A stretch of DNA of 63,546 nt, counting the filler, from Stramenopiles sp. TOSAG23-6 (Eukaryota), in the NCBI GenBank assembly GCA_900128565.1. It is 10 parts of 10 records of this genome, joined end to end, with 100 filler letters (N's around TTAATTAATTAA, not from the genome) between each part and the next. Parts side by side here need not be neighbours in the genome. Positions count along the whole stretch, not along the records: positions 48,692 to 55,514 come from LT636642.1; 9 more parts are not named here. One strand, given 5' to 3'. The notes beneath the pieces were generated by a model. It was given only the letters and a program-made list of their open reading frames with translations. It did not search any database and was not told where the DNA came from. The position numbers and the translations under genes are program-made. Within the stretch, counting starts at the first letter, position 1. The number at the start of each line of letters is the position of its first letter. Shown piece after piece: positions 11,810-63,546 of the stretch.

Positions 11810-13411
11810 TTATAATCTTCCTTTTAAAGCTAGTCGAGAGGCAGCATCAATGAGAACATCTTCGCTTCCACCAGGTATCGAAAGGGAAAGCACATGACGA
11901 TACAAGCTCTCTACTTTATTACCTTTCACATACGCATTTCCCCCTTGAAGATGTGCTGCAGATCGAGCACAGAACTCGAACGTTCTTGTAGATTGTACCT
12001 TGGCTAGTGCAGCTTCAGCACCTATTTTAAGTATTGCATCAAACCAATCATCTCCTCGACGTTCGATTGCCACAAGTCGGTACGCTAAAGCTTCAATGTA
12101 GGCATGAGTGACTTCAACTTTTCGGGCCATCTCGGCAACTTTATACCTGACAACTGGTTGGTTTTCTAACTACAATTTTTTAATATGACAAATAAAATGT
12201 TTATATTGAGTACAAACTATAAGTTCATATAATTCGCGTATGAGTTATTATTACAAAATTTCAAAAAAAATGTTAGGTACAAAATTTCATACAAAACATA
12301 CCTTTTTACCGAAAGCTCGGCGCCATTTGATGTATTCGACACTTTCCTGGAGACAAATCCTACTGAATCTGTTTGCTTGGATGGCGAGACCTAATCTTTC
12401 TGTTACAAAATTTCTCAGTAATGTATGGATCCCTCCTATCAAGTTACATGCAGGGACTTTCACATTATTAAATTCTACAAATGCAGTTCCAGATCCAGAT
12501 ACACCCATGCATTTCATTGGTCTAGTCTCAATACCATCACGAGAGCGTTCGATTAAAAGGAGTTCTATACCTAAGATACCAGAATCCTCATCACCAGTTC
12601 TGACTGCAACAGTAAAAAAATCGGCAAACATACCGTTTGTTATCCATTTTTTAATTCCATTTACGGTGTATGTATTTTGGAAAAATATTTCAAAAAAAAA
12701 ACCAAAATTTGTTAGGTACAAAATTGCGTACGAAAAAAAAATCGAAATTGAAAAAAAAAAAAACATACATGTTGAACCATCATCAGAAAGAACAGCAGTT
12801 GTTTTTAATCCACCTACATCACTTCCAGCAGCGGGCTCACTTACTGCCAAACATATTCTCTTATCTCCATTGATGCAAGGAACAGCAACGTTTTGTTGTA
12901 AGTATTCTCCGTTTTCAGTACCTTCAATTACTGCAAATAAAATTGGTGGTAATCCAATGCCAAAACCACCAATTAATCCCCATACAACCCCACCGGATCC
13001 ACATCTAGACAATTCATCGTGAGCAATAAGTGTAAAGAAGCCATCAAAAGATTCAGGTTTTGGCCCACCGCAAAGATTTTCTCGCCAACCGGAAAGTGCA
13101 GATAAAATACCTACTTCTGCAGCTTTCTTATACGCTGTTAAAGGGACTTCACCTGATTCTTCCCATGCTTCGACGTTTGGATTCACGTACTTTTCCACAT
13201 AGTCACGACACTTCTTTCTCCAGATACGATGGTGCTCATTATAATATGGAGACGCTTTGGAAGAGTCATACCAAACTGGTTCTGCCCAGGGGTTCAGTGC
13301 ATACAATATGTCGACTTTAGAAAGAGTAAATGAAGAGTGTTGTTACAGAATACAATAGTATTGATTACTTTACATAGAAAATACTGTTTTCGATCCAAAA
13401 GTGGACGACAT
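11810..13411 (-). CDS. Acyl-CoA dehydrogenase, at least 3 exons (candidate short first exon MSSTFGSKT at 13385-13411 is uncertain)
   Basis: CLAVSEPAAGSDV, DDGST|YTVNGIKKWITNG, RAFGKK|LENQPVVRYKVAEM, QGGNAY, IPGGSEDV. Confidence 0.92.
12170..12301 (-). mobile_element. Family-related intron, GT-AG (AG/AG)
   Basis: FGKK|LENQPVVR. The core motif sits near the 5' end. Confidence 0.85.
12670..12768 (-). mobile_element. Family intron, GT-AT (AT/AT), 99 nt
   Basis: DDGST|YTVNGIKKWITNG. Confidence 0.9.
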
Positions 13412-13793: not shown

Positions 13794-13997
13794 AGTATTT
13801 TGGAAAAATATTTCAAAAAAAAATCGTTAGGTACAAAATTTCGTACGAAAAANNNNNNNNNNNNNNNNNNNNNNNNNNNNNNNNNNNNNNNNNNNNTTAA
13901 TTAATTAANNNNNNNNNNNNNNNNNNNNNNNNNNNNNNNNNNNNNNNNNNNNTTTGTACCTAACGATTTTTTTTAGATTTTTTTTGAAATATTTTTT

Positions 13998-16774
13998 CAA
14001 AATACATAACTGGAGTAGATGCAACAGCAACAACAACGACACGTTCAGCTTCACGCTCATCTGTGATTTCCTCAGTTTCAGTTACACCTCCAGAGAGTCT
14101 TCCATCTAATCTATCAAAACCTCCTATCACTGGTACGGATGTAACTCGTTCAGCATCACGTTCATCTGTAACTTCATCAGTCTCAGTAACCCCCCCGGAA
14201 ATGAATAATGATTCTTTAGGTCGTCCTCCGTCTCGTCTCTCTGTGTTATCTGCGCAATCAACAACACCTCCAGATACAAGTAGACCTGAAGACATTACAA
14301 ATCAAATAGATAATAGGAGAGATGATACCGCGAGGAGTAGAAATGATGCATTAGCACTTCAAATAGATAGGATTCAAGCCCGTCGCTTTGCATGGAGACC
14401 TGATTTTGACATAATTAACCGAGACAAATTATTTGTAGAAGATAACACAGTCACTTTTGATTATTCAACTGGTCATTTACAACAACGAATCACATACTCA
14501 GGTACAATAGCAAATGAATTCAATCTTAAAATTTTCCCTTTTGATTGCCATTTTCTTACTATTGTATGTGGTAGCGGTCTTGGAACACCTTCGCTAGCGG
14601 CTGATGGAGCTAGGATATCTGAAGCATTAGATATAAATAAAATTATTACACATTTACGACCCTCACAATTTATGGAGGATAGTTTAAGTGATGCACTAGA
14701 GTCAAGAGTATCTCGACAAATGTTGGAGTGGAATTTTGATGTTGAACAAACGAGTACATTTGAGTTTGCTTGTGGTATACGCTCGGGTGATGTAGTTACC
14801 AACGAAACGGACAATATTTTTATTGATGGTGCTATAGAAACAAATGACGACTTGAATACATCATCATTTGATGATTGGAGAATGTTTGAAGATAGTGGGG
14901 AAACAAAGTATGAAGTATATAGTCTGGCAAATAACGATAAAACGATAAAGAAGAAAAAACAAAAGTGGAAACTAAATCAAATAGTTCCACAAATGAAAAG
15001 ACAATCAAGTATAAAGCCTCAGCCATCAAGAGCATCTGAGGTAGCGAATGGATTAGCCATTCGAGTTCAAGGTTTTGAAGTATCTCTGCCGGTTCGAAGG
15101 CGTAGTGAGTGGTATGTAAAAAAATGTATGGTAATATTTAACCTGATACTTGCAATGTCTTGGACGACTGCAGTATTTGATTTAGAATCAACGAATCGAT
15201 TTGATTGTCTTGGTGCATTTTTACTTTCATCACTTGCATTTCTCTACGTTGTCAATGATAGTTTACCAAAGCTTCCCTTTTTGACGATATTTGATGAAAT
15301 GATAATGGCGGGATTTCTCAACATTGGAGCATTGTATATGGAGAGTATAATAGCATGGAGGTTTAAACAATCATTTGGAGATGTTTCGTCTTTTGACATA
15401 TCTGCTTGCTTTTGTATTTGTTCACTGTACATTTTGTACATGTTCTATCTTGCATTTAAAGTCAAACGTGGTCGGGAAACATTCATGACAGAACTAAGCT
15501 ATCGGCGATTTCGACGTCATAAACAACAAAAAAGTAAAAATATGTGGAAGAATTTAGCTGAAAATCGATCACTCTTTAGTAATAAATTGAATGATATACA
15601 TCTCGGTGGAAAGGAAGAAGAAAATGATGATACATATGACGATAGCTTTAAGATAAATGAACAAATTAGAAAATCAGTATCTCGCCGCCATGCAAAGAAA
15701 GCAGCTGATTTACTTAATTTCTCAGGTTTACAGCAACCAATTGCTGAGAGTATGTCAAGTACACTTCGGCGCACGGTATATGGAAATAGTTACCACAATG
15801 TTTTATCTTCTACATTTAGCAATATTCAGCGCAATAGTCCTAGAGAGAGTGTACTGAGTCACACTCCACCGTCTGTTGCATATGGATCTGGTTATGGATC
15901 TGACTTTGACTTGTCTGGAATTAACCCGGATCATCTTATCAATAAATTAAAAATATCTGCATCGCCTCGGGTACTCAAAACTACTGGATATGGGTTTCAG
16001 CCATTTGACCAGTCACCTTTTGTTGCGGGAAACCAAAGAAAGTTACCTCGAAGTTTTAGTATGCCGAGTGCTTCCAATTTTGAAGGTAAAGACGAAGGTG
16101 TGACAGCGGAAAGTGGAGCAGTAGCTCGAAGAGCTGAAAGAAAACTTCGACGACCGAGACAAAGGAGAAATACAGCTCCCTTTCCTCAACGAAGTAATAG
16201 TTTTGGTTATGGAGGTATTTCTTTTCCAAATACACCTTATAGTGGTATTCAAAAGCGTGATTCATTTGGTTCTGTAAGATCTATGTATTATCGCGACTTT
16301 AGTGGAGAAACACCCAGAGCGATAGGTGGATTCATGTTAGATACACCTACAACTATTGGTGCAACTCCTATGGGTCGTTATACCGGAATGAAAGATGGAG
16401 GACACGGTCATCGAATGTTCTTTGCAGGTCCAATGGCATCTCCATCTCGAAAGCAAAGAAAAGCAGCGTATAAAGAAATGGGAATGTCAACCAAAATGGA
16501 AGAAGAAGCCGAAGAAGAAGACGTTGATAATGATGTCAACATTCAAGAAACTAAGGGGGATAAAAATCAACCAAATATTATAAAGAAGAAAATTGTTACA
16601 AATGTAAATACTGTAGGAGAATATGCAAAGGTGGCCAGAGATGAAAGTAATAGTACTAGTCATGTGGCTACTGAACACCAAAGCAAAGGAAACAAAAATG
16701 CAATACAACATAGATATTCACCTCCACCGACGCTTCAGTCACCCCCTCCTTCTGACAATGTAAAGAAGGAGTAA
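13998..16774 (+). CDS. Pentameric ligand-gated (Cys-loop superfamily) ion-channel-like protein, last exon, with a long C-terminal tail
   Basis: FNLKIFPFDCH (FPFD motif) followed by four hydrophobic helices with LPKLPFLTIFD, matching the M2-M3 LPxxxYLTxxD pattern. Confidence 0.78.
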
Positions 16775-26135: not shown

Positions 26136-27772
26136 ATGGCAGTTGATTCTCTTCCTGAATATTCTCAGGCTGCGGAAATAACTGAACAAAGACCAGAACA
26201 TCGTCGGCTACCAATAGACGATATACACGAGAGGTTCCGACAAAATTCAATTGATTTTGTGAAATCTTCTAATTACCAAGATCCTCAACATGACTATACA
26301 CCGGATGCTATGAGTAACCACAGAAATTTAAGTGCTCAAGACGAGTGCTACGGGAGTATAGCGTACCCAAGATATCCTCAACTCTACAGTTTGACAAACA
26401 ACTCATGTTTACCACAACGCGCGATATACAATGACGTAGAATCCATTCAGAAATTACGTGTACTTGCCCACAAGTGTATATTGGCTTATATTATTGAACG
26501 TGAATCTAATGGAGTCGTCACAGAGCAAGCCACTTTGGGCCAAGTTTTGCGCAAAGAAATTGGTTGTAATTGGAAGGCACGTCTGAACATCAAACGATTA
26601 GCGTCTTTTATTGAAAATATGGAGTATTTAGGTTTGGTGAGAACTGAGCGAGTCCTAAATCTATCATATGTCTCTGTTAATGCAAACATTTCTGCTTTAC
26701 AACAACACAAAAAAATACCACTCAGAAATTTATATGATATGACAAATTCAGACATTAGTTTGTTGAGTCGTTCTACTGTCCTTCGCACGAAACACGACGA
26801 AGAGATTTTTAATAAAAATCCAGACAAATCGAGGAATTTCACGAAATTATGTAATTTTGGTAAAAAATGTAAACGTGATGTTTGTTTATTTGCTCATTCT
26901 TTACAATCACTGACTCCTATAAAATGTATTTTTGAGAGTAAATGTCGAAATCGAAATTCCAAGACACAACCATGTACGTTTCCAACATTAATTAATTTTT
27001 TTTTGGTATGAAATGTTGTACCTAACAAATTTCAAATTTTACATACTTTTTACTCACACATGTGTTTTCATACACAGTGATGAAACAAAAATTGAATACG
27101 TGACTCGGATTATGAATGGACGAGATCTACCCCCTGGGATTTGTTGTACTGTACCCATTCACCGCCAAGTTCAACTTCGAAGTACCGTATTGAACAATCT
27201 TACCATAGCAGAAAATATTTCAACATCATCCTCTGCCATCAATGGACAGTCTACTCTTTCCAATGTAATGCCAAAAACATATGGTATCAATGGACAGTCT
27301 ACTCTTTCCAATGTAATGCCAAAAACATATGGTAAAGAGAATAATCCGTGTATTTCCAATGTAATACCAAAAACATATGGTAAAGAGAATAATCCGTGTA
27401 ATACCAAAGTCAATTTATACAATTTTGATGAACGATGCTATGAAATGAGAAAAAAAGAATATTACTCGAGTCCAAAACATTCAAATGAACATTCAAACAA
27501 GCATTCAAATAAACATTCAAATGAAGAAAATGAAAATGAACATTTTAATGAAGAAAATTCAAATGAACATTTTAATGAAGAAAATGTTAATGAAGAAAAT
27601 GTCAATGAAAAAAATGTCAATGAAAAAAATGTAATTGATCAAAATCCAAATGAACATGCATGCTTGTCGCGTCAAAGCCAATCGTTGGTGGTATCAAACA
27701 GACAAATAAAAAACACAGTTGAACGATTCGAATTTAGCAACCAATCAACACATGGCAGATTTCTTGAATTTC
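26136..27772 (+). CDS. Tandem CCCH zinc-finger protein, 2 exons visible, 3' partial
   Basis: TKLCNFGKKCKRDVCLFAH. The second finger CIFESKCRNRNSKTQP|CVFIH is completed only by removing intron 26974-27061. Confidence 0.8.
26974..27061 (+). mobile_element. Family intron, GT-AT (AT/AT)
   Basis: Completes the CCCH finger (P|CVFIH). Confidence 0.88.
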
Positions 27773-34726: not shown

Positions 34727-34886
34727 NNNNNNNNNNNNNNNNNNNNNNNNNNNNNNNNNNNNNNNNNNNNTTAATTAATTAANNNNNNNNNNNNNNNNNN
34801 NNNNNNNNNNNNNNNNNNNNNNNNNNGTTAGGTACAAAATTTCGTACGAAAAATAAATTCGAAATTGAAAAAAAAATAAAACGTAC

Positions 34887-36150
34887 ATGTATCTGTAGTT
34901 TTTGAACTTGAACTCGAATTTAAATTTAAATTTGAATTTGAATTTGAATTTTCATTCCCAATTGTTTTACAAATATTTTTCCTCAAAGATCGATTGTCAT
35001 ACAGAATAGAATCGAGTACATACGTATTGTGAAAAAATATTTTTTTGAAAACTTTGATTTTTTTTGTTAGGTACAAAATTTGTTATAAAAAAAAATATAA
35101 GTTTGAAATGAATGATGAAAACCTACATGATAGGGGTATTACATGCTGTATTCGAAGTATAGCCTCTATTGATATTAAATGTCCTCTGATCTGTTGCATT
35201 GCTTTAGATACTGCGTCGATGAAAAGTTTATTTGAACAAATTTGATTTTTTTCACTTTTCGTTTTGCATTTTTTATTTTTTTGTAGCATTTTACCATTTA
35301 AAATTTGATTTTTTTCACTTTTCGTTGTGCCTTTTTTATTTTTTTGTAGCATTTTACCATTTATAGGCGATGTCAATGTTGATAGCCACACAACTGTTGT
35401 AGATGATTGATTGCCACATAATCCTTTATTTATTGCGTTATGTAGGCATTCAGCGATACTTCTTGAAACTACATGAGAACTGCATAAAGTTGAAAAACTA
35501 TCTTGTAAAGATGGATTTACTCGGATACTATTGAAACCCTTGCATTGATTAAGAAAACGACGTTGATCATCTTCATTGTTTGGTAGCGGTGCTACCAGGA
35601 AAGTAATAATGCGACATCGTTCAGCACCTTTTGCACTCCTTATAATAGAACTAATGCTTGTGCCCTCAGCAGCTAAGAGCTCACTTATCTCTTCAGCAAA
35701 CTCAGTACTGGCTCGTTGACCTTTTTCATTGACAATATCTTGAATCATTTGCTTGACATGTTTTGAAAGGTGTACAAGTTTATTGTTGAAAATAGATTGA
35801 ACATCACTTGAGCAGCCCATATTTTTTACATTGGCGTCTTTTTGCCGGCGGGTAGATTCTACAATATTCTTTAACTCAGTTTCAAATAGCTCAACTGTTC
35901 GAATGTCAACAGGTAATATTTCACACTGGGTTCTCCTATCAAACTTTTCGGTAGTAGTGGAATCGACAAATTTATACGACCAATAGCAAGAGACACCACT
36001 CGAAGTGGCACGTGAGTGCAAGTGTGTGAGTACACGCAGAATCCCAGCACAAACGATTTCTACTTGCACTGATTGTACGTCTACAATGAAGGCTGCCACA
36101 AGTTTAGATTTGTTTGCTTCAATAGAAGTCTTGCCAGAACTAGCAGGCAT
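34887..36150 (-). CDS. Treslin/TICRR N-terminal (vWA-like) domain protein, first 2 exons
   Basis: VAAFIVD...GILRVLTHL...WSYKFVDS...FETEL...FLVAPLP parallels my recollection of the Treslin N-terminus (LLLD...ALRLLTYL...WAFKFFDS...FEEEL...FLLAPCP). Confidence 0.65.
35022..35126 (-). mobile_element. Family intron, GT-GT
   Basis: IPLS|YVLDSIL is in frame with the end CACAATACGT. Confidence 0.7.
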
Positions 36151-37600: not shown

Positions 37601-37906
37601 TTTTGTTTAGCTTTATGTAAATACAAACAAACAACTACAGTATCGAATCGAAAACAAAAAATTTACTGGGTCAAAGAAGACAAAAGAACAAAAAAAGAAC
37701 ACTAAAAGAACGATTCCTTTTTTGCTGTGAACATTTAATTGTTACCCGGTACTCATGTAGCGTACTTTCTTTTTTTCATACGCAATTTTGTACCTAACGT
37801 TCTTTTTTAAATGTACCACACAAATTTATTTCAATGTATATAATAAAGAACAACTCAGAAACAGAATACAAACAGTGACAATAATACAAGAAATACAAAG
37901 AAAATA

Positions 37907-40734: not shown

Positions 40735-41605
40735 TCAATGACCACAAGATAAAAGTTGTTCATGTATAGTACAAATAAATCGCGATATATCAATGTTTGA
40801 GTTTGAGTTTACATACTTTAGTATTCGTTCCTTTCGTCTTTTCTGTGGTTCATATATTATTTTTTCAACATAATCGGCCAAAGAGATGTAAAATTGAAAA
40901 ATTTCCTTTTCCCCACGAACGGCAATTATTGCACTTCTTTGATTACAAAATGGCTCTAATTTACCTTCGCCTTCACAACATAGCTTTTCATTATCATCAG
41001 CAATGCTGGTTGGGTATTGCGATAATCTATGTTTGCAAATATCTGCTACTAAACGAATTGCTTGCATTTCATTGGATGCATTCAAAGCTCTATAGTAACT
41101 GGTATTAGGATTCTCAAATTTTGATAATTCTAACGCTGTAGCTACAGCAACTCTAGCCCATCCAAATGCATCAACTGTGCCTGGATCTTCCGCATTCATT
41201 GTGACTCTACAGTGTAATGAAGGATGGATGAGTCTGATTCGTCTTTCCAACAAAGGGTCTGGCTCATCGCACTTTTCCTTTTCATCGCTTTCCGTATTTC
41301 CGCATGTATTTTGGAAAAATATTTCAAAAAAAAAAAAACTAAAATTTGTTAGGTGCAACATTTTTATAAAAAAATAAATTCGATTTTTTTTTTTCGGTAA
41401 ATAAAAAAAAAATAAAACATACATTGCTCCAAATCAAAAATAATAGAGACTTCATTCTGACATTTCTTATTTTGTTCCCTATTACTTTCTATAGTAAATC
41501 CATAATGAAGCAAGAACTTTGAATTGCATTTTTTGCCATAGGAGTCCATCACTTGGTTGCCAGTTTTTATTGGAGATATTGAGGTAATACAAAATGACTG
41601 TCTGA
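40735..41605 (-). CDS. C-terminal exons of a SET-domain protein lysine/histidine methyltransferase (SETD3/LSMT-like)
   Basis: GNQVMDSYGKKCNSKFLLHYGF, then a substrate-binding region with YPTSIADD and RGEKEI. Confidence 0.82.
41304..41422 (-). mobile_element. Family intron, GT-AT (AT/AT)
   Basis: DLEQ|CGNTES. Confidence 0.8.
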
Positions 41606-41801
41606 ATGTATTTTGGAAAAATATTTCAAAAAAAATCTAAAAAAATTTGTTAGGTACGAANNNNNNNNNNNNNNNNNNNNNNNNNNNNNNNNNNNNNNNN
41701 NNNNTTAATTAATTAANNNNNNNNNNNNNNNNNNNNNNNNNNNNNNNNNNNNNNNNNNNNAAAAAAAAAAAAAAAAAAAATTTTTTAGGTCGGGAATTTC
41801 C

Positions 41802-45518: not shown

Positions 45519-48500
45519 TTATTGTCCTTTTATATTATACGATTTCTGTATTGCTTTTGCACCATTAAAATTAGGAATTTGCTTCACTAAAACTTCAATT
45601 TGGTCTCTTAATCTTCGAATTTCCAACTTTTGAAGTTCAATGACACGTTGATCTTCCTCATTTGAAAATGTTTTACCACGGATTCCTCCCATTGAACTTA
45701 ACGAGTCTCTTGAACCTCTCTTTTGTTGTCTTTTTTGAAATGGTGTTAGTGAAGAACGTCCATTATTCATTCCGTTGTTTTTCGTGTTTTTTCGTTTTGA
45801 ATTTGAATTTGAATTTGAATTTGAATTTAAATTTAAATTTGGACTGGATTTTCTTCTTTGTATTTTAGATGAAGCATTTTGTTTTGACATCTTTTGTCTG
45901 TTTATTTCCAAAAGTTTATTTTCAGATTCAACTTCATGCAAATGTATTTTAATCAGTTTATTCTCTTTTCGAAGAGAATTGCATTCATTAATGAGAATTG
46001 CATTTTGTGAAATGGACCGTTTTTTTTGTTCTTGTAACTTTTCTTTTGTTAATTTTAAAGCTCTTTTTAAAGTTCCAGCCGTTTTTACCATATGTGTTCG
46101 CTGTCGTAATGCTTCTTTTAATGTAGCACTATCTAAATTACCTGGTTTTTGATTATTTGTAATTGCCTCTTCAATTCCTTCTCGTTTTACAAAAGTCCGA
46201 TACATATTTTTCACAGCTTCTTGACAGTCTTTTGCATTTGTTAGTTTCACCGCATTATCAATCACATGTAACACCGCAGTATTTAATCGTTCCTTTTGTC
46301 TATTCATCGTCCTTAACTTTGTTACCTCACTTGCTAATGATTCAACCTTTAAATCTTTGGATTTCATTATACGATCTGAATGTTTTTTAGAAAAATATTT
46401 CAAAAAAAAAATTTAAAAAATTTGTTAGGTACAAAATTTTTTTNCCNAAAAAAAAAANTAANTNCATACTAAAAAAAAAATAATAAAACATACATGCTTT
46501 TTTCCCTGAAACTCTTTAACCAATTCATCATACATTTCCTTTATATGACTTTCTAATTTTGAAATGTGTTCAGAGACTGGACCACGTTCCTCAGTGAGTT
46601 TATTAATTTTATTATCAAGTACATATCTGAAATTATCCAATTTTCTATTATTGGCTCTTAAATGTAGAATTTCAGATTCTTTAATGTTAAGAGATGCCTG
46701 AATTTCTTCAATAGTGTGTTCCCTGTGTTCCAACAAAGCTTCAAGATTTTCTTTGTTTTTTTTGAGTCTTACATTTGTTGTTGCTTGATTGGATAGTAAA
46801 TCTTTCAAATCATTAATAATTTTTTTTTTGTTTTTTAATTTGTTCTTTTGTTCCATCATTTCAGCTTCCTTTTTTGCTTGTTCTTGCCATTCTTTTTCAA
46901 TTGCTATTTTGCTTTTCATTTTCAATTCTCTAATTTCATCTTCATACTCAATTTCTTGTTGCTCTTGCTCCATATCAGATTTCTTTTGATTTTCTGCAAT
47001 TGTTTTTTGTAATTTTGAAATAATTTCATTCGTTTGAAGTTGTTTTTGATGATGTGCTTCACGGATACTATCAATTTCTTGACGTATAACCTCTTCCTGT
47101 TGCCGCAAAGCTTCTTCGCATCTTTGTGTTAATGTTTCCACATCTTCACTAATATTTTCATATCTTTCAATTTCCATACCTATATTGTGAAAAAATATTT
47201 TTTTTTTGAGAAAAATTTGTTAGGTACAAATTTTCGTACGAAAAAAAAATTATTTTTTGTAAAAAAAATTGAAAAAAAAATTGAAAAAAAAAACGTACCT
47301 AATTTTTGTTCGTACACTTCTTCCATATCTTTCTTTACTCGTGAATGTTCTGTGGACCTTCGGACATGCTCCTCTTCTTGATCTTTCGCATATTTTTGAT
47401 GTTTTGCTTGAAACTCTTCAAATTGTTCTTGATGTTGTTGTAATTGAAGTGAAGATTCATCTTGAAGTCGTTTTACTATATTTTGGAAAAATATTTCAAA
47501 AAAAAAATTAAAAACTGTTAGGTACAAAATTTCGTACGAAAACTAAAAAAAAAAACTTTGGAATTAAACCAAAAAAAAAAAAAAATAAAAACATACATTG
47601 TTCTTCCGAATCCGTTTCTTGAACATGTAGATCTAATTTAGCTTTTCTCTTGACAGTTTCAATTGTTGTTTGTAAAGATCGTATTTTATTAGCTGTTGCA
47701 TCAATATCATCTTTTAACTGTAACACAATGTCGGAGTTGAACTGATTCAATCTGGGTTTGGACCATGTAATTTTAGGAAAATATTTCAAAAAAAAATTTG
47801 AAAATTTGTTAGGTACAAAATTCCGTACAAAAACTAAAAAAAAAAAAAATCATACAAAAAAAAAATAAATAAAACATACATGCTTCTTCACGGCCTTGTT
47901 CATTCACGTTGCGTATAGCATTACAAAATAAAGTACCATCAGTGCTTGCAGAAAATAAATACTTTCCATCATCAGTTACGTATTTTGAAAAATATTTCAA
48001 AAAAAAAATCGTTAGGTACGAAATTTCGTACGAAAAAAAAAATCATACAAAAAAAAAAAAAAAAAAAAAAAAAATTTAAAAAAAAAATTTGAAAAAAAAA
48101 AAAACATACATGAATTCGACTATCAGAACCAATCATTACCAGTTGTAATCGATCTGTTTCTGGATCTGTACTTGACACAATTGATGAAAACTGACATGAT
48201 TTTACAACAATCTCAGCTACACGTTCCTTGGTTTGAATATCCCATCCATATACACCACCATCTAAACCAGCAGAAAAGAGATATTTATCATTTGATGGCC
48301 AATACAATTGAGCAACTGGGGCAATGTGGCCAAGAAATGTACATACGCATTCTGCCGTGTATGTGTTAAATACAACAACATTAATACCAGCAGCGCATGC
48401 GAAAAATTGACCTCCATTGGAGAAAGATGCTTGACGACAAAGTTTTAAAGTACTTATATATTTTGGAAAAATATTTCAAAAAAAAAATTTAATTTTTGTT

Positions 48501-48591
48501 AGGTACAAAATTTCGTACGAAAAAAAAAAAATTCATAGTAAAAAAAAAAATTCATAGTAAAAAAAAAAAATAAAACATACATATCGTGTAA
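45519..48591 (-). CDS. CFAP57: Cilia- and flagella-associated protein 57 (WDR65), 3' part, 7 exons visible
   Basis: FSNGGQFFA...GHIAPV...W...DKYLFSAGLDGGVYGW WD40 repeats, then a coiled coil with KLDNFRYVLDNKI and NAILINECNSLR. Confidence 0.85.
46380..48580 (-). mobile_element. Six family introns in CFAP57: 46380-46493 (GT-AT), 47180-47298 (GT-AG), 47476-47596 (GT-AG), 47765-47879 (GT-AT), ~47980-48109 (anomalous), 48456-48580 (GT-AT)
   Basis: Each carries the donor, the GTACCTAAC core and the GAAATATTTT 3' box. Frames join, except that 47980-48109 needs a different register. Confidence 0.82.
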
Positions 48592-48737: not shown

Positions 48738-48739
48738 TT

Positions 48740-48781
<42 letters not shown>

Positions 48782-48850: not shown

Positions 48851-49661
48851 ATGTATTTCGTGACTTGTGTCAAAGTTATCCAAATCGTCTGGTGAAAACG
48901 AATGAATTAACTTACCATTAACGCTTCGGCTTTTCCCCACGGCAATGTGGAAATTTCCCGCCACTTTATTCACCGTCATTTATTGTAGACCAATATTGAA
49001 AAAAAAAAACTGTTAGGTACAAAATTTACTATGAAAAAAAAATTCAAAAAAAAAATTTAGTTTTTTTTTGTTAGGTACAAAATTTACTATGAAAAAAAAA
49101 AAATCGAAATTCGAAATTCATAATAAAAACGTCCATGAATCCTTGAAGAGTACAGCCTATTGCATTTTTCTCTATCTCTATTTGTTTCATATGATTTCTA
49201 TTCAGTTGATGGTCGTTTATTTCTTTAGAATGGTTCAGTTGACTTTGCACAGTTTCACCGAGTAGTTTCCCAGTAACATCAATAGAGGTTTTGTGCATTT
49301 CGTGATCCACGTCAAGTTGGTGTTCACCAGCAACGTCCATGGCCACCACATTGACTTTTGAACAGGGTAGAGCTGGAAAAGTGATGTGGAGGTCAATACG
49401 TAGACGATCATCAATTGTACTATCCACTTCAACAATATCAACAAGTTTTGGGGTAAAGTAATGGATACTTTCACTAATGAATAGAAGAAAGCCAATTGAC
49501 ATCATGACCAACGATAAAGTAGCTCCACTTTTTGTACGAATTCTAATACTCTCTTCTAATTTTGGATATACATCAAGTTTTTTTGGTATATATCGAAGAA
49601 CGCTTTGTGCTGCTGAGACTGATGATATTGAGTCTGTTTTGAGTAGATTTCGACGACGCAT
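48851..49661 (-). CDS. ERGIC3: ER-Golgi intermediate compartment protein (ERGIC3/Erv46 family), first 2 exons
   Basis: LDVYPK...RTKSGA, ITFPALPC, DVAGE, GCTLQGF|MTVNKVAGNFHIA, SHEIH. Confidence 0.88.
48978..49134 (-). mobile_element. Family intron with an apparent GG donor and AT end; core duplicated
   Basis: TTC AT|GGACGT...CAATAAAT|G ACG GTG AAT AAA restores GFMTVNKVAGNFH. Confidence 0.65.
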
Positions 49662-51183: not shown

Positions 51184-51558
51184 AGAAAAAATGAGGTAGA
51201 TAACAACTAGATTGACAGATGATCTATCAAGGTTTATGATGAAACAAATATTACAAAGCTTTATTTATTTGAAATTCAATACAATTGGGATTATCAAAAT
51301 TATTTAGGATATTACTTATACATAATTATTACTTTCCTTGTTGATTCATAAGCCCTTTTCTATTATTCCATTGACGACGGTACCGTACTATAGTATATAC
51401 CAAATGTATACAACTAATTGCACGACGGGGATAGCAAAGAAGTAAATGAATGTTTTTTTTTAAACTTTNTACAATGCTTTATTGAAGAATTGCAAAAAGT
51501 TTAAAGAAAAACCATTTATTTATTTATTTATTAGTAAGCAATGATCTAGACGATGGTA

Positions 51559-52881
51559 CTACATATGTGGTTCCATTCTAAAAAAGTTTAAATAAGGAGT
51601 ACGTATTTTGGAAAAATATTTCAAAAAAAAAACGTTAGGTACAAAATGTCGTATGAAAAAATAAATAAATTCGAAATTGAAAAAAAAAATAAAAGATACA
51701 CACTCCTCGCAAGGAATTGAAAATCCCTCTTGGCACGAATTGCAACCTTTACAGTGCCACTTACACCAAAATTCACAATGTACTTCCTTTGGATTCTGCT
51801 TTGCATAAGTGAGCTCTATTATATCTCCACTTCCTAAGCTAAACGACTCCCAAGGCTCAAAGTTAATGTGTATTTTGGAAAAATATTTCAAAAAAAAATT
51901 TAAAATTTGTTAGGTACAAAATTTTTATAAAAAATCAAAAAAAAAAAATTCGATTTTTTTTTAAGGCTCAAAAAAAAAAATAAAACATACGTTGAGAGTA
52001 TCTGGAAAGTCATATATATCATTACCTTGTTTGATCCAATCTTCTCGTTTTTTAAAAAAGTCTCTACTCTTATCTTCAAGTTGCTGGAGTTTTGGAGGCA
52101 ACCAGCCTCGTCCAATTGTTCTAGGTCGTATATTTGGAAAAATATTTCAAAAAACAAATTGTTAGGTACGAAATTTACTATGAAAAAAAAATTAGACATT
52201 CATATAAAACCGATAAAACATACGTGTATCGTTATATTCTCTCTGAAGTTCATCAATAATATTTTGCTTCTTACAAGCAGGAGGACACGCAACCTGCCAT
52301 GATCTTCCTCGCTTTACACCTCTTTTAGCAGCCAACGTTTTTAATTCTTTTAATTTTAATTTTTTTAGTTCAGTTACTGCAGGAAGAGGAGAAACATTTT
52401 GGTGAAGTTCGTGAAGCATTTTTTCAATTTTTGAGTCCAAGATTTTCTTTTTTGAAACATCACGATTTACCCAGCTTTGATACCATTTGATATCTTCATC
52501 TCTGTGACATAGTCGAGCCTTAATGAGTTTACGTCTATACTTCATAATATCGCGTCGATATTCCTCGCATTCTTTTCCTAACTTTTCTAAGACTTTGTGT
52601 TTTGCAGACAAAGCAAGTTTTGAAAACCGAATCTTAATTTTCGCGAGCAAAGCAATACTTATTCGTTTTGAAACAACACCTGTGGCACCAACAACGACGT
52701 CACCACCCACAACACCACCACTACTAAGTATACTACAGACACCACCACCATCTTCCGTTTTTGTTGCTGCCTTTTGTAGTGGCTTTTGTGGTAGTGGATT
52801 TAGTGCTGGTGAAGACCCATGCGAGTTAACATGGCCACATCCACTGGAATTGGTGCAGATATTTGCCACAGAGGATTCCAT
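51559..52881 (-). CDS. Hypothetical 4-exon protein with a C-terminal Cys/His cluster
   Basis: Exons 52224-52881, 51991-52127, 51700-51867 and 51559-51600 join in one frame (YNDT|RPRTIG...DTLN|INFEPW...CEEC|TPYL). The middle exon is in a different frame from the ORF-track call. Confidence 0.7.
51601..52223 (-). mobile_element. Three family introns: 51601-51699 (GT-GT, flanks GT/GT), 51868-51990 (GT-AC, AC/AC), 52128-52223 (GT-AC, AC/AC)
   Basis: Removal yields one continuous frame. The terminal dinucleotide equals the upstream exon end in all three. Confidence 0.8.
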
Positions 52882-53204
52882 AATAAATGATCTCAGATTG
52901 TATACTAATTACAGTAGTAGAGAAGAAACCAAAGGCAACAACAACACAAAACAAGTTTTAAAAAAAATCGTTTGATGTGTTTGATGTGTTTTTAAATAAT
53001 TGTTGACCGTTGACTGAAAAGTTTGGTGTTTATTTATTGAGGGTTGGGGTTAATTTCAAATTTTTAAATGTTCGTTTTTTTTTAAGTTTTAACTTCGTAA
53101 TTTGTGTTTTGTGTCGTCGACTACTACAACACATATAAAAATATAATAATAGTGACAGTATCAAAGTTAAACATACAGAATAACAATACGTTATAGTGGC
53201 ATCA

Positions 53205-55361
53205 ATGACTCAAAATCTTCGTTATTTCCAAGAATTGCCTCATGAAAATAATCATTCATATAACATATCAAAAACTGCTGTAGAGATAGACGAGGGAGAC
53301 AACATTGAACAAACAAACAGGAGAAAAATGAATAGTCACGAAAAAGAACTACAGAACGACTCCAGTAGTTATACAACTACTAACGGTACTGATACGTCTT
53401 TAACTGCTGTACAAAAACATTCATTGTATATATATAGATTAGCGTGTAAGAAAAAGAACAATCAATATACACGTAAACAAAGTTATAATGCTCATGAAAA
53501 AGAGAATTTTCGAAATTTTAAAAATGTACTAAAAATGATTAACTTACGTCTAAGACATCGTTATATTCTGATGTTGTCATGGGCATTTCATAATATACAA
53601 CTATCTGCAACACAATCAAAATCAATTATAGTGAACTCGATCCAACTTCATCGAAAAATGGAAATGATACTTGAATTATTTGTAGTTTTTTTTTTTCATT
53701 TTTTTTTTTTACTACAATTTTTTTTTCATACGAAATTTTGTACCTAACAAATTTTTCAAAAAAAATTAAATATTTTTTCACACTATTTGAAAAAGAAAAT
53801 TTAATTCAAAGATTTCAATATTTATTATTTCAACGACAAAAACATTCAAAATATTATTCTATTTCTCGTGCGTTTAGGAAATGGTGCCTCAGTCATTGTG
53901 TATGTTTTATTTTATTTTTTCAAAATTTTTTTTTTTTCAAAATTTTTTTTTTCAAAAATTTTTTTTTTCAAAAATTTTTTAATAAAATTTTTTTTTTTTT
54001 TTTCAAAAATTTTTGTACCTAACGATGTTTACTTTTTTTTTTCAATTTCGAATTTATTTTTCCAAAATACATGCATCAATATTTGCTGCACAGAAAAAAA
54101 ACGAAATTTCTCGGTCTAATTTACTATTCAAAACATTCAAAAAAAATATGTTTCAAAAGGCTCTTAGGGTTAGGGTTTGTCAATATTTTTGTACCAGACA
54201 AAAAATGTTAAAACTTTCAGCATTTAAAAAGTGGCAACAGAACACTTCTATACAACATTGTATTACCTTATTTGACAATCAAACAAATGAAATCAAACAT
54301 ATTTTGTATATTTTTTTTATTTGTCATCAACTTTATAATGGAATGAACGTTCAGTTAGGGTTAGGGATTCAACAAAATTCAAAAAAAAATCAAAAAAAAA
54401 AACAAAAAAAATATATAAAAAATATAAAAAATCCAAAAAATCCAAAAAAAATGATAGACAAAGTCCGAACAATATGTTCAATACTACTTCGACACAATCA
54501 TCAATATTATAAACAATATATAGTAAAACAATATTTTTGTAAGTGGAAAAATTTCTCCAATATAAATTCGAAATTGGAGCTTTTAGATATAGTAAAAAAT
54601 TCATTAGTTTCACAAAACAAATTACAAACAATACATCAAAATACACTACTACATATTGAAACACAACAAAATATAGTCAATGATCAAAAACACGAAATCG
54701 AAATACTTTGCAACCAAATGGATAAAATGAAATTACAATATGAAAACGAAAAAAAAAAGTTGTTTGATAAATGTATGTTTTTTTTTTTTTAAATAATTTT
54801 TTTTTGTAGTAAATTTTGTACCTAACCAATTTTCAATTTTTTTTTTTTAGATATTTTTCCAAAAATATCACAACAACATACAATCATGCAACAAAATACA
54901 GAAGAAATGTATAGAAAACAAACTCAAATGTATAAGAATGAATACTCAAGTGAACAAAGTGCAAATAAAATATTACATAATAATTTACAAAAAAAAAAAA
55001 AAAAATTGAATGAAAAAAAAAAAGAAATGCAAAATGTTGTTACGCTTTACGATACAAAACAATCATCATTATATAATGAAATGAGTCAACTTCAAGAAGC
55101 ATCAAACGAAATCATTGCTACGCTAAATGATGAATACAAAGCAAAATTACAATATATTGAAATGGAACAATCCTGTCATTTTAAGAATTTAACTGAAGAA
55201 TTTCAAGAAAAGGAAAAAAAAATCAATGAAATGTTTTGTCATTCTACAAAAAAACATTCAGAAAACACTTTTGAAATTCTCCAACAACAAAAAATATTGA
55301 AGCAAAGTAACAAAAAATATGAAAATGATATTCAAGAGTTGCGGTATACAAATTCATTACT
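53205..55361 (+). CDS. Multi-exon coiled-coil protein with AFxKW-type motifs (centrosomal/Sfi1-like, tentative); 3' partial
   Basis: Four exons joined across introns 53682-53788, 53900-54072 and 54773-54868. RAFRKW, SAFKKW, YFCKW. Confidence 0.55.
53682..54868 (+). mobile_element. Three family introns: 53682-53788 (GT-TT, TT/TT), 53900-54072 (GT-AT), 54773-54868 (GT-AT; an in-frame AG alternative ends at 54850)
   Basis: ELF|EKEN, SHC|ASIF, FDK|SQQH. Confidence 0.72.
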
Positions 55362-55613
55362 GTATGTCTTTGTTATGGATATTTTTTTTTAATTTTTTGA
55401 AATTTTTTGAAATTTTTTTTAAATTTTTTAAATTTTTTTTTTCTTTGTTCAAAGAAAAAAAAAAAAAATCTTTGAAATTTTTTATTCGTACATTTTTTTT
55501 TTTTTTTTTTTTTTNNNNNNNNNNNNNNNNNNNNNNNNNNNNNNNNNNNNNNNNNNNNTTAATTAATTAANNNNNNNNNNNNNNNNNNNNNNNNNNNNNN
55601 NNNNNNNNNNNNN

Positions 55614-62426: not shown

Positions 62427-62647
62427 NNNNNNNNNNNNNNNNNNNNNNNNNNNNNNNNNNNNNNNNNNNNTTAATTAATTAANNNNNNNNNNNNNNNNNN
62501 NNNNNNNNNNNNNNNNNNNNNNNNNNATTTTGGAAAAATATTTCAAAAAAAATCTAAAAAAATTTGTTAGGTAANAAANTTTTNAAAAAAAAAAAAATTC
62601 AATTTCAAATTTAAATTTAAATTTAAATTTAAAAAAAAATAAAATAC

Positions 62648-63491
62648 ATGTGCCATTAATCGTCTCATTTCTTGTAGCTCTAGAAAGGTAGAAGAAATAC
62701 TTTCATCTAGTACACGGAAAAGCCGAACCTGTTTATCTCTTCTAAGATTTCCATTTCGCCTTCTTAAATTATCAGTATTCCAAAATTTCGTTTTCATCAT
62801 TATATAAGGCATCAATGTAGTTAACCCGCCATCATCAGAAAGCCACCACACATGTATTTTGTAAAAATATTTCAAAAAAAAATTGTAAAATTTGTTAGGT
62901 ACAAACTTTTTATAAAAAAATAAATTCGATTTTTTTTTTTTTTTTTTTTCGAAAACAAAAAAAAAATAAAACATACATCTACAGTACCTGTTGGTGAAAC
63001 ATTCCGCATAGATGCATGTACACGACGAACTACAAGAACACCCATGCGCATCCTCAAAGTATCTCTGATCAATTTCACATAATCGTCTAATTGTTTCAAA
63101 ATAACATCTTTACTTTCTATTTCTGCCTTTTGTATCCAAGATTCCATAAAACCAAGCATCAGAATATTTGGTTTAAGAGCACCAACACCCGCCGCCTGGA
63201 GTAGTATCTTTGCCCCTTCTCCCAGACTTGGTGCTACAACAGTTTCAGCAAGTGCAAAACCTGTAGACTTTCGATTCTTAACGAAGTCTCCACATATGTA
63301 TTTTAGAAAAATATTTCAAAAACAAAAACTTAAATTTGTTAGGTACAAAATTTCGTACAAAAAAAAAAAAAAAATCGAATTTGAAAAAAAATTAAAACAT
63401 ACATATTTCGAAAGAACTCAACCGGGTGTCGGTTAGGAGCACAATCGACATAAGAGTGGAATTTTTTTCGAAGTTCCAACATATCCTGCTG
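62648..63491 (-). CDS. SLC12 cation-chloride cotransporter, C-terminal exons
   Basis: LLQAAGVGALKPNILMLGF and GTVD|VWWLSDDGGLTTLMPY, the latter restored by removing intron 62852-62976. Confidence 0.9.
62852..63402 (-). mobile_element. Two family introns in SLC12: 62852-62976 and 63296-63402, both GT-AT (AT/AT)
   Basis: The first restores the conserved D|VWW..DDGGL motif; the second keeps the frame. Confidence 0.88.
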
Positions 63492-63546
63492 ATGTATTTT
63501 GGAAAAATATTTCAAAAAAAACTNAAANTTGNTANGTACNAAAATT

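What the first reader, a model, noticed from the sequence alone, without database searches (positions are those of the whole stretch)
51601..53788. The intron's last two bases copy the upstream exon's last two bases: a 2-bp TSD used as the 3' splice site (introner)
Seen: exon end and intron end match as GT/GT (51601-51699), AC/AC (51868-51990 and 52128-52223), TT/TT (53682-53788), AG/AG (47180-47298, 12170-12301) and AT/AT in most others. That is 21 of 27, and five of the six exceptions differ by one base. Between the copies the element typically runs GTAT(G)TTTT...AAAATAC, a short terminal inverted repeat. Established: introners in Micromonas and Aureococcus are non-autonomous DNA transposons that take a splice site from their target-site duplication. 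Inference: here the element supplies donor and branch point, and the 3' TSD copy is excised whatever its sequence. Insertion would then be seamless at any dinucleotide, with AT preferred.
Basis: partly seen in the sequence, partly recalled or inferred. Interest (0 to 1): 0.92.

Follow-up and report, generated by a model that had tools for sequence, protein, structure and literature searches.

The report
Repeated introns that end without AG
The genes of this marine protist carry many near-identical inserts of about 100 bases that look like introns left by a jumping element, and most end in a copy of the two exon bases before them instead of the usual AG, a rare arrangement known from only a few other lineages.

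Summary
The window is about ten unlinked contigs of roughly 6.9 kb from an AT-rich stramenopile. Identical public gene models carry a MAST-3-type label. I curated 27 complete introns of one family: GTATGTTTT…TTTTGTACCTAAC…GAAATATTTTTCCAAAATAC+NN, 88-217 nt, always in sense orientation inside ORFs.

- The last two intron bases equal the last two exon bases in 21 of 27 (shuffle mean 12.6, p = 1.5e-5).
- Six of those matches are not AT (shuffle mean 0.63, p = 3e-6).
- 24 of 27 do not end in AG.
- The reading frame needs removal of the element plus exactly 2 nt in 23 of 25 testable cases (p = 1.5e-9).
- Homologue alignments confirm four introns to the codon.

The best reading is an introner-type, transposon-derived intron family. 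The element brings the donor and branch signal, and a 2-bp target duplication (AT preferred) forms a non-AG 3' end.

Not shown:
- No RNA junction, empty site or transposase was found, and the inverted repeat is weak (4+3 bp).
- mRNA sequence cannot separate GT…NN from NN…AC boundaries.
- "Any dinucleotide" is too strong: 24 of 27 3' ends have A at -2.

Close precedents exist in Fritillaria and Amoebophrya, so this is a new variant of a known kind. Public gene models force GT-AG here and delete conserved motifs.

The parts
3286..3385 (+). Family intron in an AMP-binding-enzyme gene. Exon end TA, intron end AT (mismatch).
   Evidence: Homologues read PKV|VPLTHG across the junction with no gap, so exactly 100 nt (98+2) is removed. 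Coordinates.
3478..3646 (+). Degenerate family intron (GTAGGTTTT…CACAATAT+AT), AT/AT.
   Evidence: Found as the gap between tblastn segments (…INV / MPLFHLHG).
4151..4367 (+). Long family intron. Exon end GA. The frame puts the 3' end at AAAT, 2 nt inside the element's ATAC (exception).
   Evidence: Frames of the flanking homologue-aligned exons.
4558..4689 (+). Family-derived intron, AT/AT, 132 nt.
   Evidence: A gap of exactly 44 codons against P0242 and P0244 (44 codons in two of three alignments shown; in P0245 the gap is partly filled by an insertion of its own). Sequence.
5206..5301 (-). Degenerate family intron, AT/AT.
   Evidence: ORF continuity.
5495..5652 (-). Family intron with a GTAAAA donor, AT/AT.
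   Evidence: Unique in-frame junction, 238 and 179 open codons.
11168..11263 (+). Family intron in an LRR gene, AT/AT. A CAG 5 nt upstream of the end is out of frame.
12170..12301 (-). Intron with the family's 5' half and branch motif but a longer tail that ends in a canonical AG. AG/AG.
   Evidence: Gap of exactly 44 codons against acyl-CoA dehydrogenase homologues.
12670..12768 (-). Family intron in the acyl-CoA dehydrogenase gene, AT/AT, 97+2 nt.
   Evidence: Gap of exactly 33 codons against the closest homologue P0121.
26974..27061 (+). Degenerate family intron, AT/AT. The downstream CAG is out of frame.
35022..35126 (-). Family intron, exon end AT, intron end GT (mismatch). Element plus 2 nt is still removed.
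41304..41422 (-). Family intron, AT/AT.
46380..46493 (-). Family intron, AT/AT.
   Evidence: Unique in-frame junction, 242 and 286 codons.
47180..47298 (-). Family intron, AG/AG (canonical GT-AG).
47476..47596 (-). Family intron, exon end AT, intron end AG (mismatch, canonical acceptor).
47765..47879 (-). Family intron, AT/AT.
47980..48109 (-). Family intron in a WD40 gene. The frame needs removal of the element alone, so it ends in its own AC (exception).
48456..48580 (-). Family intron, AT/AT. The upstream exon is cut by N, so the frame is untestable.
48978..49134 (-). Family intron in an ERGIC-domain gene. It starts GG (GGACGT) and has a duplicated branch module. AT/AT.
51601..51699 (-). 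Family intron, GT/GT. Last intron of the gene.
   Evidence: The frame after it is not verifiable (13 codons).
51868..51990 (-). Family intron, AC/AC.
   Evidence: Frame of the exon between supported by codon usage.
52128..52223 (-). Family intron, AC/AC (tail CCAAATAT+AC).
53682..53788 (+). Family intron (GTAGTT donor, tail CACACTAT+TT), TT/TT.
53900..54072 (+). Family intron with an expanded T/CAAAA stretch. Exon end GT, intron end AT (mismatch).
54773..54868 (+). Family intron, AT/AT.
62852..62976 (-). Family intron in an SLC12-like gene, AT/AT.
63296..63402 (-). Family intron, AT/AT.
6977..7031 (-). 5' part of a copy cut by a contig end. Exon end AT.
13794..13852 (-). 3' part of a copy cut by a contig end. 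ATAC is followed by TT.
13953..14007 (+). 3' part of a copy cut by a contig end. ATAC is followed by AT.
34827..34886 (-). 5' part of a copy cut by a contig end. Exon end AT.
41607..41660 (-). 3' part of a copy cut by a contig end. ATAC is followed by AT.
62527..62647 (-). Copy whose last bases are lost in N. Exon end AT.
63492..63546 (-). 3' part of a copy cut by the window end. ATAC is followed by AT.
825..920 (+). Variant copy that begins ATAAGT (G1 changed to A). Not counted among the 27.
   Evidence: Flanked by an 8-nt direct repeat, GTGAATAT / GTGAGTAT.
37750..37825 (+). Short degenerate copy between two minus-strand genes, antisense to both. Not counted.

Best explanation
This is an introner family: short non-coding mobile elements that became spliceosomal introns.

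- Each copy brings a strong donor (GTATGT) and a yeast-like branch motif (TACCTAAC), but no AG acceptor.
- Insertion duplicated two target bases. AT is strongly preferred, and AC, GT, AG and TT also occur.
- Splicing removes the element plus the downstream copy of those two bases, which restores the original coding sequence.
- Most of these introns are therefore GT…AT, and the position of the 3' cut is set by the element's end rather than by an AG.

Shown: the family, its sense orientation, the missing AG, the element-plus-2 frame rule and the dinucleotide covariation.

Inferred: removal by the spliceosome, the exact register of the cuts, an origin by DNA-level transposition, and mobilisation in trans by an enzyme encoded elsewhere.
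For: 1. Family. The motif GTACCTAAC (one mismatch allowed) occurs 48 times against 6.7 expected. There are 46 nhmmer hits, and the copies align end to end.
2. Spread. The copies lie in unrelated genes: AMP-binding enzyme, acyl-CoA dehydrogenase, LRR, WD40, ERGIC, SLC12-like and others.
3. No AG. 24 of 27 introns do not end in AG, and 16 of those 24 have no AG in their last 40 nt. Using the first downstream AG would keep the frame in only 8 of 24, which is the chance level of one third.
4. Frame rule. Removal of the element plus 2 nt joins the open frames in 23 of 25 testable introns: 21 by the longest ORFs and 2 by codon usage. P = 1.5e-9 against one third.
5. Homologue alignments give gaps of exactly 33 and 44 codons in the dehydrogenase gene. 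In the AMP-binding gene they give the exact PKV|VPLTH junction and a 44-codon gap.
6. Covariation. 21 of 27 match, p = 1.5e-5. Six non-AT matches stand against 0.63 expected, p = 3e-6.
7. Target preference. The exon ends in AT in 18 of 27 against 10.4% in coding sequence, p = 4e-12.
8. Decay. Copies differ from the consensus by 7.5-24%, mean 14%, so about a quarter of duplications should have decayed. Six of 27 have.
9. Recent gain. Both dehydrogenase introns are missing from the closest homologue P0121 (64% identity), which the source lists as a 451-aa protein on one 5143-base contig and which aligns without a break from residue 39 to 451.
10. Independent data. The element sequence is present in very many contigs of one seawater metagenome and three metatranscriptomes of other studies. 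It is therefore not an artefact of this assembly.
11. DNA-level insertion. One degenerate copy lies antisense in an intergenic spacer.
Against: - No RNA contig bridged any of the seven introns laid, so splicing and its register are not observed.
- No transposase domain turned up in 40 ORFs, and no empty site was found.
- The inverted repeat is only GTAT/ATAC plus three A-T pairs over a bulge.
- Six of 27 pairs do not match. One of these (3286, TA/AT) differs at both bases although homologues show that exactly element plus 2 nt is removed.
- Two copies break the plus-2 rule (4151 and 48109).
- C at -3 (10 of 27) and G at +1 (14 of 27) resemble a normal splice-site context as much as a palindromic target.
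- The sample is 27 introns from about ten small contigs, with only 4 to 6 informative non-AT matches.
Confidence: 0.62

Rival explanations
1. The same elements and the same mRNA, but the cuts lie two bases upstream at both ends. The intron would be NN+GTATG…ATAC. That makes most of them AT…AC, and the constant AC would be the real 3' splice site. Such introns might be handled like AT-AC introns.
For: Because the dinucleotide is repeated, mRNA cannot tell the registers apart (sequence). For the 15 AT/AT and 2 AC/AC copies this register pairs a first A with a last C. That is the known compatible pair of AT-AC introns (recalled knowledge). Copy 48109 does end at its own AC by frame.
Against: - The first bases would then vary (AT, GT, AC, TT, AG), while G1 and T2 of GTATGT are kept in 27 and 26 of 27 copies although later positions drift.
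- The closing C is replaced by T or A in about nine copies.
- The donor and branch motifs do not fit the U12 type: GTATGT instead of RTATCCTT, and the branch motif lies 32-50 nt from the end.
Confidence: 0.13
2. There is no target duplication. AT would be the element's own last two bases and the lineage's preferred non-AG acceptor, and AT before the donor would be a separate target or splice-site preference. The few non-AT matches would then be chance or mis-set boundaries.
For: - AT dominates at both places, 18 of 27 each.
- Copy 4151 uses an AT inside the element, and 24 of 27 ends have A at -2.
- C at -3 and G at +1 mimic the usual splice context.
- Copy 3286 has AT at the 3' end although the exon ends in TA.
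Against: - Six non-AT matches against 0.63 expected (p = 3e-6), and four against 0.41 without the AG pairs (p = 1.1e-4).
- The two AC/AC cases are backed by codon usage.
- GT/GT and AC/AC follow directly after an unchanged …CCAAAATAC end.
Confidence: 0.07
3. The introns and their splicing are as in the best explanation, but they spread without a transposase. Copies of the element, as DNA or as cDNA of spliced-out introns, would be captured at staggered double-strand breaks, and filling in a 2-nt overhang would give the duplication.
For: - There is no convincing inverted repeat, and no transposase in the window.
- Gozashti et al. 2022 report that many introner families lack inverted repeats or duplications (passages).
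- Short direct repeats at new introns have been ascribed to break repair in Daphnia (recalled).
Against: - The duplication has a constant 2-bp length and a strong AT preference, 18 of 27 against 10.4%. Both suit an enzyme with a defined cut better than random breaks.
- The element ends are constant.
- Plain reverse splicing would carry the same last two bases to every site and would give no covariation.
Confidence: 0.12
4. The inserts are not removed at all, because the genes are pseudogenes. Or the inserts are artefacts of assembly or amplification, or they are cut out of the DNA as in ciliates.
For: The window is a patchwork of small contigs, and several of them end inside copies. An inverted pile of fragments at 4833-5100 could be a chimeric joint.
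Against: - The flanking exons are long, open and conserved, and they line up with homologues to the codon once the inserts are removed.
- The element occurs in independent metagenomes and metatranscriptomes.
- The donor and branch motifs are those of spliceosomal introns.
- The organism groups with stramenopiles, not ciliates.
Confidence: 0.03

Closest known systems
Non-canonical, MITE-derived introns of the tunicate Fritillaria borealis (Henriet et al. 2019, seen only through passages of the review PMC11282704; follow-up PMC13326754, abstract only)
   Same: The introns are transposon-derived and lie at lineage-specific positions. A duplicated exon motif before the intron (TAC in Fritillaria) forms a non-AG 3' splice site. 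The 3' ends include AC and AT.
   Different: - Fritillaria introns mostly start with AG, not GT, and belong to many families. Here one family has a textbook GTATGT donor and a TACTAAC-like branch motif.
- The duplication here is 2 bp and mostly AT.
- The host is a unicellular stramenopile.
- The U2AF duplication reported for Fritillaria could not be looked for here, because no genome is held.
Introner elements among the non-canonical introns of the dinoflagellate Amoebophrya (Farhat et al. 2021, PMC7789003, passages)
   Same: These are repeated intron elements with direct repeats that overlap the exon/intron borders, so the borders are ambiguous. They have non-GT-AG ends and no transposase inside.
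   Different: - Amoebophrya elements have direct repeats of 3-5 nt and inverted repeats of 8-20 nt that fold into a hairpin. They show no common splice motif, and U1 was not found.
- Here the repeat is 2 nt and the inverted repeat is minimal. Six copies fold no better than shuffled sequence (z from -1.5 to +0.4). The donor and branch motifs are conserved.
Canonical introners of Micromonas, Aureococcus, Chrysochromulina and others (Huff et al. 2016, recalled; Gozashti et al. 2022, PMC9860276, passages)
   Same: Many near-identical introns sit in unrelated genes with a target-site duplication. In Chrysochromulina the element carries the 5' splice site and takes the 3' site from the duplication. 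Splicing leaves the mRNA length unchanged.
   Different: - In those families the site taken from the duplication is a normal AG, and the duplications are 3-9 bp.
- Here the duplication is 2 bp and the resulting 3' end is AT, AC, GT or TT in 24 of 27.
- The later survey discarded families with unfamiliar splice sites unless RNA supported them (PMC12130899, passage).
U12-type (minor) introns, including the expanded set in Physarum (Larue et al. 2021, recalled)
   Same: They tolerate several 3' end dinucleotides, have extended conserved donor and branch motifs, and include AT-AC ends.
   Different: The donor is GTATGT, not RTATCCTT (1 of 27 has GTATCT). The branch motif TACCTAAC lies 32-50 nt from the 3' end, not 10-20 nt. 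No snRNA genes could be searched.
Nonconventional introns of euglenids (review PMC11282704, passages)
   Same: They have non-canonical ends and repeats like target duplications at the junctions. A MITE origin has been suggested for them.
   Different: Euglenid introns lack a GT donor and a polypyrimidine tract. They rely on a stable stem that brings the ends together. Here the donor, branch motif and T-rich tract are present and no stable stem is predicted.

Membership tests
Introner (intron-generating repeat family) | Many near-identical introns within one genome | tested here: met
   27 complete and 7 truncated copies in 63.5 kb. They align end to end with a mean 14% difference from the consensus.
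Introner (intron-generating repeat family) | Copies lie in unrelated genes, in sense orientation, at positions not shared with orthologues | tested here: met
   The genes belong to at least seven different Pfam families. All 27 copies are in sense orientation. Both acyl-CoA dehydrogenase introns are absent from the closest homologue P0121. Orthologue structure was tested for this one gene only.
Introner (intron-generating repeat family) | Removed from the mRNA by splicing | tested here: inconclusive
   ORF continuity (23 of 25) and four codon-exact homologue gaps argue for it. No RNA contig bridged an intron.
Non-autonomous DNA transposon (MITE) | Target-site duplication of fixed length | tested here: met
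   A 2-bp direct repeat is intact in 21 of 27 (p = 1.5e-5), with six non-AT matches (p = 3e-6). A 3-bp version is rejected, because G follows in only 14 of 27.
Non-autonomous DNA transposon (MITE) | Terminal inverted repeats (usually 10 bp or more) | tested here: inconclusive
   Only GTAT/ATAC plus TTT/AAA over a one-base bulge. This is not distinguishable from chance in T-rich sequence.
Non-autonomous DNA transposon (MITE) | Autonomous partner with the same ends; presence/absence polymorphism | not testable with these tools
   No whole genome is held. No transposase domain was found in 40 ORFs of the window. The public contig scans found no copy. Contigs of the metagenome run stop at the repeats.
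Tc1/mariner-type element | TA target-site duplication | tested here: not met
   The duplication is AT in 15 of 21 intact pairs and is never TA. That TA defines the family is recalled knowledge.
U12-type intron | Donor RTATCCTT, and branch motif TCCTTAAC 10-20 nt from the 3' end | tested here: not met
   The donor is GTATGT in 17 of 27 and GTATCT in 1 of 27. TACCTAAC lies 32-50 nt from the end, median 42. The consensus motifs are recalled.
Canonical GT-AG spliceosomal intron | AG at the 3' end | tested here: not met
   Only 3 of 27 end in AG. The nearest downstream AG is out of frame in 16 of the other 24, and homologues exclude it in 2 more.

The most novel reading that the evidence does not exclude
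The spliceosome of this MAST-3-type stramenopile no longer needs AG. With a strong GTATGT donor and TACCTAAC branch site, it cuts at a place fixed by the element's end. An element with a 2-bp duplication could then enter coding sequence at almost any A-pyrimidine dinucleotide and be removed seamlessly. Extrapolating from about 35 copies in 63.5 kb, that would have allowed thousands of recent intron gains. This would be an independent origin, in a third eukaryotic supergroup, of the relaxed splicing seen in Fritillaria and Amoebophrya. Because the introns are uniform, it would also be the simplest natural system for asking how a 3' splice site is chosen without AG.
Probability: 0.45. Interest if true: 0.8.

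Novelty: new variant of a known kind. Interest (0 to 1): 0.62.

Why it matters
1. It would add a stramenopile to the few lineages (a tunicate, a parasitic dinoflagellate, euglenozoans) in which an invasion of mobile elements goes with introns that lack AG. That bears on whether relaxed splicing lets introns spread or follows from their spread.
2. The family is unusually clean: one sequence, a canonical donor and branch site, and only the 3' end is free. The rules for choosing a 3' site could therefore be read from thousands of natural variants.
3. It has a practical cost now. Public gene models of this very sequence force GT-AG introns.
   - P0241 uses an AG 27 nt downstream and loses the conserved PLTHGQLG motif.
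   - P0001 lacks four stretches of an uninterrupted phosphofructokinase ORF, among them GGLCPG and GGDG.
   - Gene counts, missing domains and apparent pseudogenes in such single-cell genomes may therefore be partly artefacts.

Tried and rejected
- Whole genome: none is held.
- RNA evidence. One search for runs and one laying of three metatranscriptomes and one metagenome on 48692-55514. No contig in the shown part of the tables (76 further joints and 6924 further pieces were not shown) joins across any of the seven introns, and no empty site appeared. Contigs stop at the repeats. This says nothing either way about splicing or polymorphism.
- More copies. The scan of metagenome contigs with the 20-base 3' end gave 15 loci. 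None of them carries the branch motif, so all are chance hits in AT-rich DNA. The scan of viral contigs gave 0. A genome-wide covariation test was therefore impossible.
- Homologues of the gene that holds the AC, AC and GT introns (query 52224-52881): none at E <= 0.001. Its frames rest on ORFs and codon usage only.
- Rfam on the whole window: 0 matches.
- A hairpin that brings the ends together: six copies fold no better than shuffles.
- Transposase: no such Pfam domain in 40 ORFs.
- A 'normal' GT-AG intron that I suspected at about 4400-4480 is coding sequence, aligned to homologues. I found no intron unrelated to the family, but only three genes had homologues to check.
- A 3-bp duplication (NNG giving the donor G) is rejected: G follows in only 14 of 27.
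- The alternative frame for exon 51991-52127 would turn both AC/AC introns into AC/AT. It is rejected by codon usage.
- Literature. 'introner'+'MAST-3' gave 0 papers. 'MAST-3'+'introns'+'non-canonical'+'single-cell' gave 0. 'GT-AT'+'introner' gave 0. 'Incisomonas'+'intron' gave 11 listed papers, none on this by title or abstract start. A paper on MAST-3 single-cell genomes uses 'intron' twice and 'splice' not at all; the one shown passage with the word, in its gene-prediction methods, does not describe such introns (passages).
- Supplements were closed. The family lists of the introner surveys (PMC9860276, PMC12130899) could hold this family, and I could not check.

Full report
**What the window is.** The window has about 33% G+C and 807 N. 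The N runs come as N44-TTAATTAATTAA-N44 linkers every 6.8-6.9 kb, and the pieces between them fall steadily in length. The window is therefore a chain of about ten separate small contigs. Neighbours across a linker are not neighbours in the genome. Several contigs end inside the repeat studied here.

No whole genome is held. A phosphofructokinase ORF finds stramenopile relatives at 50-62% identity. Two public gene models, P0001 and P0241, are identical to the window wherever they align. The source names them 'GSMAST32…'. I take the organism to be a MAST-3-type marine stramenopile.

**The repeat.** GTACCTAAC (one mismatch allowed) occurs 48 times against 6.7 expected. Its surroundings show one element:

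GTATGTTTTATTTT(T)n CAATTTCGAATTT (T)n CGTACGAAATTTTGTACCTAAC AAATTTTA (T)n GAAATATTTTTCCAAAATAC, followed by two variable bases.

A profile built from 17 copies finds 46 hits. Three more degenerate introns appeared only as gaps in homologue alignments. I curated 27 complete copies that interrupt ORFs, all in sense orientation and 88-217 nt long. Seven more are cut by contig ends. About a dozen weak, intergenic or uncertain hits were left out of all counts.

**Are they introns, and where do they end?**
- Only 3 of 27 end in AG. Among the other 24, 16 have no AG in the last 40 nt.
- The first AG in the next exon would keep the frame in 8 of 24, exactly the chance rate. Homologues exclude it for two of those eight.
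- With the donor at the G of GTATGT, the longest upstream and downstream ORFs join in frame when the element plus two more bases is removed. This holds for 21 introns directly and for two more by codon usage. That makes 23 of 25 testable, P = 1.5e-9 against one in three.
- Two introns were not testable. Copy 48580 has its upstream exon cut by N. Copy 12301 has a tail that cannot be aligned to the family.
- tblastn with homologues reads straight through four introns. It shows gaps of exactly 33 codons (12670-12768), 44 codons (12170-12301) and 44 codons (4558-4689). For 3286-3385 the junction PKV|VPLTHG is identical in spacing to the homologues' PKVVPLTHG.
- Two copies break the rule. Copy 4151 must end at an AT two bases inside the element, because the homologue-aligned Q codon begins with the element's last C. 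Copy 48109 must end at the element's own AC.

**The dinucleotide match.** The last two intron bases equal the last two exon bases in 21 of 27: AT 15, AG 2, AC 2, GT 1, TT 1.

Shuffling the 3' dinucleotides among introns gives a mean of 12.6 matches (p = 1.5e-5). Non-AT matches are 6 against 0.63 (p = 3e-6). Without the AG pairs, which any canonical AG|GT…AG intron would also show, they are 4 against 0.41 (p = 1.1e-4).

The two AC/AC cases needed care. The 137-nt exon between them is open in two frames, and the other frame would make both introns AC/AT. In 74 of 74 held-out windows of 45 codons the true frame scored best.

The frame after the GT/GT intron cannot be checked. Its GT does follow an unchanged …CCAAAATAC.

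Copies differ from the consensus by 14% on average. Loss of about a quarter of 2+2-base identities is therefore what simple decay predicts, and four of the six exceptions differ by one base.

A 3-bp duplication is excluded, since G follows in only 14 of 27.

**What this means.** The covariation is a property of the DNA. It is what a 2-bp target-site duplication looks like.

- Plain reverse splicing would carry one fixed 3' end to every new site, so it does not explain the covariation.
- The target is strongly biased. AT precedes the element in 18 of 27 against 10.4% in coding sequence (p = 4e-12).
- C is enriched at -3 (10 of 27, p = 0.007) and G at +1 (14 of 27, p = 2e-4). That could be a palindromic C-AT-G target, or the usual splice-site context with T in place of G. 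I cannot tell which.
- One short degenerate copy lies antisense between two minus-strand genes, which suits insertion at the DNA level.
- Both dehydrogenase introns are missing from the closest homologue (64% identity; a 451-aa protein on one 5143-base contig that aligns without a break from residue 39 to 451), which suits recent gain.

**What is not shown.**
- No contig from three metatranscriptomes or one metagenome bridged an intron or showed an empty site. The contigs stop at the repeat.
- Those runs do show that the element is present in very many contigs of independent seawater samples. It is therefore real and highly repeated.
- Scans of public contig collections found no further copy, so the sample stays at 27.
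- No transposase domain is in the window.
- The 'terminal inverted repeat' is 4+3 bp with a bulge. Six copies fold no better than shuffled sequence, so a hairpin mechanism of the Amoebophrya or euglenid kind has no support.
- Because the dinucleotide is repeated, GT…NN and NN…AC give the same mRNA. I prefer GT…NN. G1 and T2 are kept in 27 and 26 of 27 copies while neighbouring positions drift, and the closing C is often replaced.
- The distance from the branch motif to the 3' end varies from 32 to 50 nt, and earlier AT dinucleotides in the tail are skipped. Neither a ruler from the branch site nor 'the first AT' explains the cut. Something reads the element's end.
- A stands at -2 in 24 of 27 ends. 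'Any dinucleotide' is therefore not established.

**Comparison with what is known.**
- Introners that take one splice site from their target duplication are established. Chrysochromulina elements carry the 5' site and take the 3' site from a 4-bp duplication (Gozashti 2022, passages). That site is a normal AG.
- Non-AG ends made from a duplicated exon motif are described for Fritillaria borealis. There an exonic TAC precedes the intron and forms the 3' site, and AG-AC and AG-AT ends are the commonest (review, passages). Divergent U2AF paralogues are reported to read such ends (abstract).
- Amoebophrya has repeated non-canonical introns with direct repeats of 3-5 nt across the borders and inverted repeats of 8-20 nt (passages).
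- The present family differs from all of these. It has a canonical donor and a yeast-like branch motif, a 2-bp mostly-AT duplication, almost no inverted repeat, and a stramenopile host.
- My searches found no paper that links introners to MAST-3 or to GT-AT ends.
- The large surveys start from annotated introns. The later one drops families with unfamiliar splice sites unless RNA supports them (passage), so a family like this could have been missed.

**Verdict.** The concept already has close precedents. I file it as a new variant of a known kind, of moderate to high interest. It also has an immediate practical consequence: public gene models of this sequence are wrong at these introns.

Noticed in passing
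window 6877-6976, 13853-13952, 20817-20916, 27773-27872, 34727-34826, 41661-41760, 48592-48691, 55515-55614, 62427-62526: Nine linkers of the form N44-TTAATTAATTAA-N44 separate pieces whose length falls from 6876 to 6812 bases. The window is a size-sorted chain of separate contigs, not one locus. At least six contig ends lie inside copies of the intron element.
   Followed up: yes
window 24351-25775 (-) and 2632-3478 (+); proteins P0001, P0241: Public gene models identical to the window are mis-spliced. P0001 lacks four stretches of an uninterrupted phosphofructokinase ORF, among them GGLCPG and GGDG. P0241 joins a GT inside the element to an AG 27 nt past the true intron end and loses PLTHGQLG. 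It also skips 14 coding residues at about 3167-3209.
   Followed up: yes
window 825-920 (+): This variant copy begins ATAAGT instead of GTATGT. It is flanked by an 8-nt direct repeat with one mismatch (GTGAATAT … GTGAGTAT). Both the element-plus-2 junction (protein …SEY|EYG…) and a GT…AC junction six bases upstream are in frame. I have no explanation for the longer repeat.
   Followed up: partly
window 4833-5100: The AMP-binding gene breaks off after VEH at a copy's 5' half. Element fragments in the opposite orientation follow (GTTAGGTA twice), and these belong to the end of a minus-strand LRR gene. This is either two convergent genes whose last introns abut, or a chimeric joint at the repeat.
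   Followed up: no
window 37750-37825 (+): A short degenerate copy (AT|GTAGCGTAC…GTACCTAAC…CACAC|AA) lies in the spacer between two minus-strand ankyrin/LRR genes, antisense to both.
   Followed up: partly
window 48978-49134 (-): This copy starts with GG (GGACGT). Its 58-nt module with the branch motif is duplicated in tandem. The flanks share ATG, so GG…AT and GA…TG give the same mRNA.
   Followed up: partly
window 3167-3209: A weak minus-strand match to the middle of the element (E = 2e-4) lies inside plus-strand coding sequence of the AMP-binding gene, in a stretch that varies among homologues. It may be an exonised antisense fragment or a chance hit.
   Followed up: no
window 51428-52339 and 53708-54163, as laid: Summed contig depth over the element parts is about 10^2 to 10^4 in one seawater metagenome and three metatranscriptomes, against 0-9 over the flanking unique exons. 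The family, or relatives of it, is very abundant in those samples, including poly(A) RNA libraries. Whether that is unspliced RNA, excised introns or DNA carry-over is open.
   Followed up: no
window 43480-43530 (-) and 6540-6640: Microsatellites (TTTTGGTA)x5 and (AATTTTTGT)n. Next to the second is a short CCTAACCCTAACCCTAA stretch, which looks like telomere repeats, near the end of the first contig.
   Followed up: no
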